DNA of 4,294 nt from a virus (Duplodnaviria; Heunggongvirae; Uroviricota; Caudoviricetes). A model generated the notes under the pieces. The model ran no database searches and was not told the origin of the DNA. It saw nothing but the letters and a program-made list of their open reading frames with translations. Below, in pieces: positions 1 through 4,294 of the stretch. The stretch is from positions 1 through 4,294 of the IMG/VR virus record IMGVR_UViG_2534681675_000010, one strand, 5' to 3'. Every line of letters starts with the position of its first letter. Position 1 is the first letter of the stretch. The position numbers and the translations under genes were made by a program.

Positions 1-349
1 TTTTTTGATGACTTATTATTTATTCTTATGCAATATGCGATTTTAAGTATGTTAAGTCTTTATCGGATTGTTTATGTAAGCACGATGGTTAAATTTTATG
101 ATTCTCTGCCGTCTGACATGGATTGAATTTGCTCATTATTTGACTGGGTGAATACATCATAAAACGAAAACGGGGCAACTGCACTCGCAGGCTCTTTGTC
201 AGTGTCGCTGGTGTGTTTTGGGGCTGATAACGATGAAGACCTCTCCCGGAGGAGATTCAGACATACCTGCACAAAGCCTGAATTGAAAAGCAACAGTTAT
301 AATGTGCAGTGCGGTGGGGATGAAAAATATGTGAGCATAATCAAAAAAA

Positions 350-371
350 CTGCTGTGTTGGAGCACAGCAG
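350..371 (-). terminator. Rho-independent terminator for leftward (minus-strand) transcription
   Basis: Inverted repeat CTGCTGTG (350-357) / CACAGCAG (364-371) with 6-nt loop. On the minus strand the stem is followed directly by a 7-U run (plus-strand A-run 343-349). Lies about 150 nt downstream of the stop of the 518-730 minus-strand ORF. Confidence 0.55.
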
Positions 372-517
372 TAAAGGTACTGATAAGGGTAGAAGATTAT
401 TATTGTTATTCTTTTTTATTTTATATGACGGATGATTTCAATTCGGAATAAATACGACTAATAACTGCGACTTTTTGTAAATTCAGCAATATAAAGAAAT
501 GGTTATATGAACAGTTA

Positions 518-730
518 TCACAGAGCAGACGGTGTATCATTCTTTGTTACAGTTAACTGACGGGCACATTTTATGTCTGCTGCCAGCCTCCGGCGACAGG
601 CTTCAATAACCCATGCCGAAAAGTTGCCGGAGCCTTTATGCTCAAGGGCGATATTGATCTGCTCAATCATGTGATTGGGAAAACGGATGTTACGGGTTGT
701 TGTTTTGCTGGTTTTGTTCTTCGATGACAT
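518..730 (-). CDS. Small hypothetical protein (70 aa), possible ribbon-helix-helix DNA-binding fold; resembles DUF3950 (YlcI/YnfO-like) proteins found next to Nu1 homologs in E. coli cryptic prophages
   Basis: Minus-strand ORF with ATG start (complement of 728-730) and TGA stop (complement of 518-520). The segment RNIRFPNHMIEQINIALEH looks like an RHH beta-strand followed by a helix. The family assignment is recalled, not searched. Sits just upstream of cos on the opposite strand, with an intrinsic terminator downstream. Confidence 0.55.
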   Translation of the reverse strand: MSSKNKTSKTTTRNIRFPNHMIEQINIALEHKGSGNFSAWVIEACRRRLAADIKCARQLTVTKNDTPSAL

Positions 731-894
731 TGTCTTTTTCCATATTCACTGCAGTGTTCTGTATTGTCCAAAGATGTTTTTACTTAAATTTGATGCAGAT
801 CAATTAATGCATTGAGACCGAACTCATTATTTGTCCTCTTTCATGGTGAACTTGTCGGTTGAGATAACTTTTATTTAATTGATAATTATTATCA

Positions 895-929
895 TTTTCG
901 GGTCCTTTCTGGCGATCCGGCCTGTTACG
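895..929. other. cosQ-like region immediately upstream of cosN (prophage right-end sequence)
   Basis: GGTCCTTTCTGGCGATCCGGCCTGTTACG closely resembles the last bases of the phage lambda genome as I recall them (GGTCCTTTCCGGCGATCCGACAGGTTACG), ending in GTTACG just before the cohesive end. Confidence 0.6.
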
Positions 930-941
930 GGGCGGCGACCT
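930..941. other. cos: cosN cohesive-end site (12-nt lambda-type cohesive end GGGCGGCGACCT)
   Basis: Exact match to the lambda left cohesive end GGGCGGCGACCT, followed by CGCGGGTTTTCGCTATTTA as at the lambda left end. Small-terminase gene starts about 215 bp downstream, as in lambda. Confidence 0.88.
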
Positions 942-1146: not shown

Positions 1147-1624
1147 GTGGCCTTTTTATTGAATAAAAGCGACATGGCCTCCTCCATCGGTATCTCAGTA
1201 CAGGCATTTGATAAATGGGGTGTTCCTCCTGTTGAGCGCAGGGGGAGAGAGGTTTTCTATGACGTTAAAACTGTACTGGAGATAGATCGCGAGCGACGTC
1301 AACAAAACCAGAAATCTTCAGGTGGTGAAAATGATCTTGAGGAAAGGCTACTTCAGGCCAGGGTTAACCTGACGGAAGAACAGGCTATTGCTCAGCGGTT
1401 AAAAAACCAGGTTGCAGAGCATAAGGTGATTGATACAGCTTTCTCTATTTTTGCCCTGTCCCGGTTATCCGGAGAACTGGCATCTGTTTTGGACAGTATT
1501 CCGCTTTCGATGCAAAGAAAATTCCCTGAATTGACAGGCAGACAATTGGCTTATCTAAAAGAGCTGGTTGCGAAGGGGGCTAATAAATGCGTTGAGTCCG
1601 CTGAAAAAATGAAGGAATTTGCGG

Positions 1625-1653
<29 letters not shown>
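1147..1653 (+). CDS. nu1: Terminase small subunit (Nu1-like; DNA-recognition subunit), divergent from lambda Nu1
   Basis: C-terminal half clearly homologous to lambda Nu1 (DTAFSIFALSRLSGELASVLDSIPLSMQRKFPEL versus lambda ETAFCTFVLSRIAGEIASILDGLPLSVQRRFPEL). N-terminus aligns with the Nu1 winged-HTH (LNKSDMASSIGISVQAFDKWGVPPV versus VNKKQLADIFGASIRTIQNWQEQGMPV). Start is uncertain: GTG 1147 follows a GGAGGGG Shine-Dalgarno (1138-1144) and keeps the HTH helix 1, first ATG is 1174, and the ORF track begins at TTG 1123. Stop TAA 1651-1653. Confidence 0.85.

Positions 1654-4294
<2,641 letters not shown>

What the first reader, a model, noticed from the sequence alone, without database searches (positions are those of the whole stretch)
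518..730. Small RHH-like / DUF3950-like gene divergently placed just upstream of cos
A 70-aa minus-strand ORF with a strand-then-helix N-terminal signature (RNIRFP, then HMIEQINIALEH) sits about 200 bp before cosN and has its own terminator. I recall similar small proteins of unknown function (YlcI/YnfO, DUF3950) next to Nu1 homologs in E. coli cryptic prophages. Its conserved position beside the packaging site is unexplained. It could be a small DNA-binding regulator or moron, and its function is, as far as I know, uncharacterised.
Basis: partly seen in the sequence, partly recalled or inferred. Interest (0 to 1): 0.4.

Follow-up and report, generated by a model that had tools for sequence, protein, structure and literature searches.

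The report
Small regulator gene beside phage cos
This is a real, strongly conserved 70-residue gene of the YlcI/YnfO (DUF3950) family, most likely a small Arc-like DNA-binding regulator made by lambda-type prophages from its own oxygen-sensor-bound promoter; phage lambda carries an unannotated copy, and its biological role is still untested.

Summary
The ORF at 518-730 (minus strand, 70 aa) exists as described, 199 bp from the cosN nick, with a good terminator hairpin at 349-372. It is a full-score member of Pfam DUF3950 and NCBIfam YlcI/YnfO, and RefSeq already annotates it. Its first 49 codons are under strong purifying selection (dN/dS 0.04 against lambda). Reference lambda has an intact, unannotated copy at complement(48109..48303). 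The fold reading (ribbon-helix-helix, Arc/Mnt-like) is likely but rests on weak, in-register profile hits; the structure model and fold search were inconclusive. The intergenic region holds a perfect FNR box (790-803) placed as a class II activator site for this gene, and a Fur box (880-894) next to cosQ. Both sites are experimentally bound in K-12 cryptic prophages but were assigned to nohA/nohB. The position before the packaging genes holds across three unrelated terminase modules in E. coli prophages, but not family-wide. Distant members sit in P4-like/PICI satellites, opposite the primase operon, behind three evenly spaced palindromes, or as chromosomal orphans. Best reading: a lysogen-expressed regulatory moron encoding a small repressor. 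It is a known family with unknown function and is of moderate interest.

The parts
518..730 (-). CDS of the 70-aa YlcI/YnfO (DUF3950) family protein
   Evidence: ORF list; Pfam, NCBIfam and PHROG hits; RefSeq annotation WP_000095729.1.
584..730 (-). Codons 1-49: basic N-terminal arm plus the putative ribbon-helix-helix core. This is the conserved unit of the gene.
   Evidence: These residues are nearly invariant among close homologs. dN/dS is 0.043 against lambda. DNA homology to lambda and to HK97-type prophages begins or ends at this segment. AF2 places helices at 19-32 and 39-58. Arc aligns in register.
518..583 (-). Codons 50-70: a lineage-specific, hypervariable C-terminal tail that starts at a mosaic joint
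   Evidence: Alignments A1 and A3. Lambda homology stops near 584. Window 1-600 is found in only 20 of 5426 E. coli genomes.
339..372 (-). Intrinsic-terminator-like hairpin plus U-run, 146 nt downstream of the stop codon
   Evidence: dG -15.6, z -4.0.
763..768 (-). Putative -10 hexamer GACAAT of the ylcI-type promoter; predicted start near 756
   Evidence: Conserved at -38/-39 from the ATG in three diverged promoter variants: window, lambda and 21-type. It lies 21 nt from the FNR box. The transcription start is inferred, not measured.
790..803 (.). Perfect FNR box TTGATGCAGATCAA, centred about 41 bp upstream of the predicted start (class II geometry)
   Evidence: The identical sequence is bound by FNR in vivo and in vitro in K-12 DLP12 and Qin (Grainger 2007, PMC1802558). 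It is a strongly enriched ChIP-seq peak with a very high motif score (Myers 2013, PMC3688515). It is conserved at -73/-74 in the lambda and 21-type variants.
880..894 (.). Fur-box palindrome TGATAATTATTATCA abutting cosQ. It supplies GATAAT hexamers on both strands and overlaps a rightward promoter-like site at 859-886.
   Evidence: The homologous K-12 sites are 25.3-bit and 22.3-bit Fur clusters, gel-shifted by Fur (Chen 2007, PMC2189734), and are listed as Fur-repressed 'nohA'.
900..941 (+). Context: cosQ-like GGGTCCT (900-906) and the cosN cohesive end GGGCGGCGACCT (930-941)
   Evidence: Sequence; alignment with the lambda right end. The element names come from my own knowledge of lambda cos.
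1147..3753 (+). Context: divergent packaging genes, namely Nu1-type small terminase (1147-1653), gpA large terminase (1625-3550) and gpW (3547-3753)
   Evidence: Pfam; RefSeq annotation.

Best explanation
The ORF is a genuine gene for a small YlcI/YnfO (DUF3950) protein. Residues about 10-50 most likely form an Arc/Mnt-like ribbon-helix-helix DNA-binding domain. In that reading the strand xxRNIRF pairs with the same strand of a second subunit to read the major groove through T12, N14 and R16. A basic N-terminal arm and the NFSAW cap of helix B would hold the backbone.

The gene is an autonomous unit transcribed leftward, against the late operon. Its promoter has -10 GACAAT 21 nt from a perfect FNR box, and the unit ends at its own hairpin terminator. 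It is therefore built to be expressed from the prophage (a 'moron'), probably in response to anaerobiosis and possibly iron (a Fur box lies 80 bp further upstream).

The protein most likely acts as a transcriptional repressor or autoregulator. By analogy with the satellite branch of the family, its target may be the promoter region it shares with the divergent lytic module, here the Fur-controlled promoter reading through cos into the terminase genes.

Shown: gene reality, family membership, purifying selection, the sequence elements, and FNR and Fur binding to the identical or homologous K-12 sequences. Inferred: the RHH fold, the transcription start and FNR activation. Speculative: the target and the biological role.
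For: Family membership and selection. The module is present in 4681 of 5426 complete E. coli genomes, with up to 13 copies per genome, and intact in lambda itself.

RHH reading: AF2 gives two helices after an extended N-terminus. Arc aligns in register, NLRWP against NIRFP, at P 0.011. RHH proteins are among the top PDB profile hits, at non-significant E-values: a CopG-family chain and CdbA. There is also a HicB-type RHH hit.

Autonomous unit: the terminator. The FNR box and GACAAT keep the same distances from the ATG in three diverged variants. FNR ChIP-chip with EMSA and ChIP-seq show binding at ylcI/nohB and nohA/ynfO. The K-12 gene is transcribed, forming a convergent overlap with ybcW in RNA-seq.

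Repressor analogy: in P4-like/cf-PICI satellites the gene is the only one on the opposite strand. It lies about 180 bp from the small-genes/primase operon. Three or four 12-bp palindromes (GTG-N6-CAC) sit at -123, -100, -76 and -30. Their cores change together with residues 12 and 14 of the protein. Some islands with these arrays show no alpA in the expected place between int and the gene (L049 type).
Against: No significant fold match was obtained: Foldseek against PDB gave nothing, and the model pLDDT is only 67. No RHH Pfam family scored.

Myers 2013 saw no FNR-dependent expression change at these loci in glucose minimal medium. Grainger 2007 saw low, FNR-independent activity, although the primers show the fusion faced nohA.

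The lambda-type intergenic region lacks the three-palindrome array of the satellites, so no operator is identified here. The HK97-type context has neither the FNR box nor a comparable intergenic region.

The covariation between operators and protein residues in satellites is confounded by linkage: any neighbouring protein would covary too.
Confidence: 0.6

Rival explanations
1. Host-directed lysogenic-conversion regulator. The protein is a DNA-binding regulator, but its targets are host genes switched on under anaerobic or iron-limited gut conditions, not phage promoters.
For: The gene has its own FNR-bound promoter and a nearby Fur site. Orphan copies sit in chromosomal and virulence settings with no phage module to control. 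These include S. enterica arizonae and diarizonae between sopB/IpgD and a C69 peptidase gene, with their own TTGAT-N4-ATCAA at -77, plus Pantoea and Tatumella metabolic loci. The gene lies in the same interval as bor in lambda.
Against: No host phenotype or regulon has been reported. The satellite context points to a local target.
Confidence: 0.2
2. Packaging-site accessory factor. The protein binds at or near cos to modulate terminase action, for example by shielding the prophage cos or assisting cosQ function.
For: In E. coli prophages the gene always lies directly before the packaging module, whatever the terminase type: Nu1, DUF1441 or HNH/HK97-type. In lambda-type phages the gene, promoter and cos form one conserved block. 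In cosmid experiments a helper phage would supply the protein in trans (my reasoning).
Against: Distant family members have no Nu1/gpA-type packaging genes or lambda-type cos within 4 kb. In the HK97-type context the gene is separated from cos by the HNH gene. The opposite-strand, own-promoter, own-terminator design is typical of lysogen-expressed genes, not late packaging functions.
Confidence: 0.1
3. Orphan RHH antitoxin or remnant of a toxin-antitoxin pair.
For: There is weak similarity to HicB-type RHH domains. A 39-aa ORF (421-540, minus strand) overlaps the stop codon.
Against: No conserved downstream partner exists. The 3' flank differs between lineages and is ORF-poor. In lambda the next gene is convergent. 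There are no PADLOC hits. Satellite and orphan copies are single genes.
Confidence: 0.05
4. The conservation reflects a DNA or RNA element (a recombination linker at a module boundary, or an antisense transcript) rather than a protein.
For: Mosaic joints fall at both ends of the 147-bp segment. The K-12 transcript overlaps ybcW convergently.
Against: Over 49 codons there are 20 synonymous against 6 non-synonymous differences from lambda, giving dN/dS 0.043. The protein motif persists at 38-50% identity across genera where DNA similarity is gone.
Confidence: 0.03

Closest known systems
YlcI (DLP12) and YnfO (Qin) of E. coli K-12; Pfam PF13132 DUF3950; NCBIfam NF041551
   Same: They belong to the same family by full-score HMM hits. 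They have the same size and the same place before nohD/nohA. They share the same FNR box sequence and a homologous Fur site.
   Different: The window protein is 67% identical to the lambda/DLP12-type protein in the multiple alignment (72% by tblastn). It carries a different, rarer C-terminal tail and 3' flank. It sits in an apparently intact prophage rather than a cryptic one.
Arc and Mnt repressors of phage P22 (ribbon-helix-helix)
   Same: All are small stand-alone proteins with a basic arm. The strand motif N-x-R-aromatic-P is followed directly by helix A. N14 and R16 align with Arc N11 and R13 (the Arc sequence and its base contacts are from my own knowledge). Mnt is likewise a prophage-expressed repressor transcribed divergently from the promoter it controls.
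   Different: No significant sequence or fold match was obtained. Neither the operator nor the oligomeric state is known. The gene is not in an immunity region.
Lambda morons bor and lom
   Same: Each is an independently transcribed unit within the late region that can be expressed from the prophage, with own promoter and terminator. The ylcI-type gene, like bor, is counter-oriented and lies in the Rz-cos interval.
   Different: Bor and Lom are envelope proteins. This gene encodes a putative cytoplasmic DNA-binding protein with an FNR-bound promoter.
CI/OR-type switch of lambdoid phages (analogy for the satellite branch only)
   Same: Three palindromic sites lie 23-24 bp apart between divergent promoters. 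The small opposite-strand gene occupies the position of the maintenance repressor (the OR spacing is from my own knowledge).
   Different: The protein is a putative RHH of 50-67 aa, not an HTH repressor with a cleavable C-terminal domain. Binding is untested, and the array is absent from the lambda-type locus.

Membership tests
DUF3950 / YlcI-YnfO family | Score above the curated cutoffs of PF13132 and NF041551 | tested here: met
   71.9 bits against a cutoff of 25, and 36.5 bits against a cutoff of 30. All 25 diverse members tested also hit PF13132.
DUF3950 / YlcI-YnfO family | Short stand-alone protein (50-80 aa) with the IRF...NFSAWV.EAC core | tested here: met
   The protein is 70 aa. I15, R16, F37, S38, A39, V41 and A44 are invariant columns.
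Ribbon-helix-helix (Arc/MetJ/CopG) superfamily | Beta-alpha-alpha topology with an N-terminal strand of alternating polar and hydrophobic residues | tested here: inconclusive
   Two helices lie at the expected places and residues 10-18 are extended or coil in the monomer model, at pLDDT 67. The strand cannot form without the partner subunit. The pattern R-N-I-R-F fits.
Ribbon-helix-helix (Arc/MetJ/CopG) superfamily | Significant sequence or structure similarity to a solved RHH protein | tested here: inconclusive
   Only weak hits were found, all aligned in the same register: Arc P 0.011, 9kkd E 0.56, CdbA E 0.48 and phrog_497 E 0.0077. Foldseek found nothing.
Ribbon-helix-helix (Arc/MetJ/CopG) superfamily | Obligate dimer that binds repeated or palindromic operator DNA | not testable with these tools
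   Candidate operators exist only in the satellite branch. No multimer prediction or binding assay was available.
Class II FNR-activated promoter | TTGAT-N4-ATCAA site bound by FNR | tested here: met
   The match is 10/10 at 790-803. The identical sequence is bound in vivo and in vitro in K-12.
Class II FNR-activated promoter | Site centred near -41.5 relative to the transcription start | tested here: inconclusive
   The geometry fits the conserved GACAAT hexamer, but no start-site data were available.
Class II FNR-activated promoter | FNR-dependent expression | not tested
   Published data show no change in glucose minimal medium, and only a nohA-facing fusion was tested. The ylcI-facing promoter has not been assayed.
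Moron (autonomous prophage-expressed unit) | Own promoter and terminator, orientation against the late operon, dispensable accessory position | tested here: met
   Transcription of the K-12 copy is reported. Dispensability was not tested.
Type II toxin-antitoxin (RHH antitoxin) | Conserved adjacent toxin gene in the same operon | tested here: not met
   No conserved partner appears in any context. PADLOC gave no hit.
cos/terminase accessory protein | Co-occurrence with a packaging site or terminase across the family | tested here: not met
   This holds only in E. coli/Shigella-type lambdoid prophages. It is absent in satellites and orphans.

The most novel reading that the evidence does not exclude
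YlcI-family proteins are the missing maintenance repressors of Gram-negative P4-like/PICI satellites. In that reading they bind the three evenly spaced GTG-N6-CAC palindromes to hold the primase operon off. The lambda-type copy is a derived version that couples anaerobiosis and iron status (FNR, Fur) to silencing of a cos-proximal promoter into the terminase genes. Phage lambda would then carry an overlooked environmental input into late or packaging gene control.
Probability: 0.12. Interest if true: 0.7.

Novelty: new member of a known kind. Interest (0 to 1): 0.38.

Why it matters
About 86% of complete E. coli genomes carry this module, often in many copies. The best-studied phage, lambda, has an intact copy missing from its reference annotation. 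Two global regulators, FNR and Fur, are experimentally known to bind right here, but the sites were credited to the terminase pseudogenes nohA and nohB. Re-assigning the FNR site to the divergent small gene gives a directly testable idea: lambdoid prophages make a small DNA-binding protein in response to gut-like conditions. The satellite data offer a candidate for the unknown repressor of Gram-negative phage satellites. None of this changes the fact that the family is already catalogued and its function remains unproven.

Tried and rejected
- **Structure:** the single-sequence AF2 model was poor (pLDDT 54). The alignment-based model reached only 67. Foldseek against PDB gave no match with E below 6.
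- **Pfam at E up to 10:** on 25 members, no RHH family appeared apart from one HicB-like hit.
- **Rfam:** no hits in the window or in three satellite loci, apart from a tRNA.
- **PADLOC:** no hit.
- **Lambda 'orf64':** the ORF of that name in the CRISPRi paper is a different ORF near pR'. The phi80 orf64/AtiEcA is unrelated.
- **Gifsy-1 gene STMMW_26411:** this anaerobically induced gene could not be linked to this family.
- **Unavailable papers:** the lambda ribosome-profiling paper and the Casjens-Hendrix review are not held.
- **Shared 11-mer:** ACACTGAATAC occurs in lambda and in the HK97-type upstream region, but on opposite strands and at different distances. I judged it chance.
- **Three-palindrome array:** the array seen in satellites was not found in the lambda-type intergenic region.
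- **Toxin-antitoxin reading:** rejected for lack of any conserved partner.

Full report
**Observation**

The window is the lysis-to-packaging junction of a lambda-type prophage. It is identical to a stretch of E. coli N96. Lambda's cohesive end GGGCGGCGACCT is at 930-941 and a cosQ-like GGGTCCT at 900-906 (element names are from my knowledge of lambda). The start codon is therefore 199 bp from the nick. A 9-bp GC-rich stem followed by seven U lies at 372..349 on the gene's strand. It folds at -15.6 kcal/mol, z = -4.0. The terminator claim holds, although it lies 146 nt beyond the stop codon.

**Is it a gene?**

Yes. It scores far above the curated cutoffs of Pfam DUF3950 and NCBIfam YlcI_YnfO_N, and it hits phrog_949. 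RefSeq already names it a YlcI/YnfO family protein.

DNA from 584 to about 960 is 77% identical to the right end of phage lambda. Lambda has an intact 64-codon homolog at complement(48109..48303). The reference record NC_001416 does not annotate it.

Over the first 49 codons the window and lambda differ at 20 synonymous but only 6 non-synonymous positions (dS 1.27, dN/dS 0.043). This excludes a chance ORF or a purely DNA-level element.

The module (N-terminal coding part, promoter, cos) occurs in 4681 of 5426 complete E. coli genomes, with up to 13 copies each. After codon 49 the proteins diverge completely. The window's own tail and 3' flank are rare, found in 20 genomes.

**Family and fold**

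The family is narrow. Only 100 clusters at E <= 0.001 were found among 1.84 billion representatives. After removing contaminants, all true members are 50-70-residue stand-alone proteins of Enterobacterales plus Gilliamella. Invariant positions are I15, R16, F37, S38, A39, V41 and A44.

AF2 with a 17-sequence alignment gives two helices (19-32, 39-58) after an unstructured N-terminus, at pLDDT 67.

The weak similarity hits that point to a known fold class are to ribbon-helix-helix proteins, and they share one register:
- P22 Arc by hhalign, P 0.011, pairing NIRFP with NLRWP (Arc sequence from memory)
- a CopG-family chain, E 0.56
- CdbA, E 0.48
- a HicB-type RHH PHROG, E 0.0077

Foldseek found nothing, as can happen for a monomer model of an obligate dimer. 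I rate the RHH assignment likely (about 0.8) but not shown.

**The transcription unit**

The intergenic region contains a perfect FNR consensus, TTGATGCAGATCAA, at 790-803. Twenty-one nucleotides further toward the gene lies GACAAT (768..763). The box and the hexamer keep their distances from the ATG (-73/-74 and -38/-39) in three diverged variants: the window, lambda, and a phage-21-type cos region. The sequence between them drifts. With a start about 7 nt after the hexamer, the box would be centred near -41. That is the class II activator position (established knowledge of FNR and CRP promoters).

The same sequence in K-12 is a documented FNR target:
- Grainger et al. 2007 found ChIP-chip peaks at nohB and nohA/ydfO with this site and confirmed binding by EMSA (PMC1802558).
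- Myers et al. 2013 list ylcI/nohB and nohA/ynfO peaks in all data sets, with a very high motif score of 16.68 (PMC3688515).

Grainger's reporter used an upstream primer inside ylcI and a downstream primer at the nohA start. It therefore measured only the nohA direction (my reading of the primers). Myers saw no FNR-dependent expression change in glucose minimal medium and proposed masking by Fur. FNR binding is thus shown, while FNR activation of this gene is inferred and untested.

A Fur-box palindrome (880-894) abuts cosQ. Its K-12 homologs are among the strongest predicted Fur clusters (25.3 and 22.3 bits) and are shifted by Fur (PMC2189734). The palindrome supplies GATAAT on both strands and overlaps a rightward promoter-like site at 859-886. 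That site is probably the Fur-repressed 'nohA' promoter of the literature.

**Context in lambdoid prophages**

All hits with a lambda-type Nu1/gpA neighbour are from Escherichia, Shigella or close relatives. The gene also sits, antisense, directly before two other packaging modules:
- an HNH endonuclease plus HK97-type terminase, with a 41-bp gap and no FNR box
- a DUF1441-type small terminase

In the HK97-type case, homology to the window covers only the 147-bp N-terminal coding segment. Mosaic joints therefore flank the domain on both sides.

**Family-wide context**

Members at 38-60% identity have no Nu1/gpA within 4 kb. Most lie in P4-like or capsid-forming PICI satellites, arranged as int, alpA, sometimes antA, then the DUF3950 gene. 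It is the only gene on the opposite strand. Two small genes and the primase follow. A 2026 survey of Enterobacter satellites lists the same gene without comment on function.

The roughly 180-bp region between the gene and the leftward operon holds three or four 12-bp palindromes of the form GTG-N6-CAC. They lie at -123, -100, -76 and -30 from the ATG, 23-24 bp apart. A TTGACG -35-like element for the leftward promoter sits between them.

The palindrome cores fall into classes that track residues 12 and 14 of the protein:

| Residues | Palindrome core |
|---|---|
| YKG | TTTAAA |
| TKG | YATATA |
| KKG/KKN | TGCGCA |
| xKK | C-rich |

In the Arc alignment these residues are the positions facing DNA. 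This looks like an OR-type switch with the small protein in the repressor position. However, linkage alone could produce the covariation, so it is an inference.

Other members are chromosomal orphans:
- in Pantoea, next to ABC transporter genes
- in Tatumella, between malic enzyme and a citrate carrier
- in S. enterica arizonae and diarizonae, between sopB/IpgD and a C69 peptidase gene

The Salmonella copies and a Citrobacter copy carry their own TTGAT-N4-ATCAA at -77.

**Mechanism**

The common denominator is a single small gene with its own promoter. In mobile elements it is oriented against the neighbouring lytic operon and placed just upstream of that operon's start. The best-supported reading is a prophage- or satellite-expressed RHH repressor.

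For this window I propose FNR-assisted (and perhaps Fur-influenced) leftward transcription from about 756, termination at 349-372, and a dimeric DNA-binding product. Its target is unidentified. Candidates are its own promoter and the Fur-controlled promoter that reads through cos into the terminase genes.

The rivals are a host-directed regulator, a cos accessory factor, an orphan antitoxin, and a DNA/RNA-only element. They are weighed in the rival section. The last two are contradicted by tested features.

**Comparison and novelty**

The gene is a member of an already catalogued family of unknown function. No paper found assigns it a role. What this analysis adds:
- the unannotated lambda copy
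- evidence of strong protein-level selection confined to 49 codons between mosaic joints
- re-assignment of a published high-affinity FNR site to this gene on geometric and comparative grounds
- positional conservation across three terminase types
- the operator-like arrays in satellites

These are leads, not proof, so interest is moderate.

**Dead ends**

Fold search, Rfam, PADLOC and the RHH Pfam models gave nothing. Two lambda papers were unavailable. 'orf64' in the literature is a different ORF. A shared 11-mer between unrelated upstream regions was judged chance.

Noticed in passing
L003 2210-2404 (NC_001416 complement 48109..48303): The reference lambda genome has an intact 64-aa YlcI homolog with no CDS annotation. 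Some other lambda-like records call it a hypothetical protein, and several have nothing annotated there.
   Followed up: yes
window 859-894: The Fur-box palindrome TGATAATTATTATCA abuts cosQ and gives GATAAT on both strands. The rightward promoter-like site TTGAGA-16-GATAAT reads through cos into the terminase genes. It matches the Fur-bound 'nohA/nohB' sites of the K-12 literature and hints at iron-regulated transcription across cos in lysogens.
   Followed up: partly
L006-L033, L036-L038, L040, L042, L055, L062; many 3.5-kb ENA contigs: Assemblies of unrelated taxa (Kitasatospora, Cohnella, Pedobacter, Enterococcus, MAGs, even S. aureus) contain lambda right-end DNA on contigs of about 3.5 kb or 48.5 kb, often with frameshifted YlcI copies. 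This is almost certainly lambda control-DNA contamination, and it inflates the apparent taxonomic range of the family.
   Followed up: partly
L092 4947-5554; L095 2227-3281: The same gene sits antisense directly before an HNH/HK97-type packaging module (41-bp gap, no FNR box) and before a DUF1441-type small terminase. DNA homology to the window there is limited to the 147-bp N-terminal coding segment, so mosaic joints lie at both ends.
   Followed up: partly
L088 5870-5935; L084, L057, L061, L066, L068 and others at -123, -100, -76 and -30 from the DUF3950 ATG: Three or four 12-bp palindromes (GTG-N6-CAC) spaced 23-24 bp apart lie between the DUF3950 gene and the leftward primase operon of P4-like/PICI satellites. 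Their core sequences change together with protein residues 12 and 14.
   Followed up: partly
L088 about 5815-5860 and the same place in 14 other satellite loci: A conserved GC-rich hairpin (GAAGCCCGG, a 17-nt loop, CCGGGCYTC) lies in the leader of the leftward operon. It shows compensatory changes between genera and has no Rfam match. It could be a regulatory RNA element of these satellites.
   Followed up: partly
L084 5634-6608; L057 3535-4719; L065 3625-4572: Long ORFs (315-394 aa) run antisense across the DUF3950 gene and its promoter region in satellites, and some pipelines call them as genes. Their only shared segment is the reverse translation of the conserved domain, so they look like annotation artefacts.
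   Followed up: partly
window 1-517 (L001 8490-9517): About 1 kb between the Rz-like gene and this gene is AT-rich (29-37% GC in places) and has no convincing ORF. This left part occurs in only 20 of 5426 complete E. coli genomes, but in up to 5 prophages per genome.
   Followed up: partly
L043 and L044 4001-4171: In S. enterica subsp. diarizonae and arizonae a 56-aa family member lies between sopB (IpgD family) and a C69 peptidase gene, an SPI-5-like setting. It has a perfect TTGAT-N4-ATCAA 77 bp upstream.
   Followed up: no
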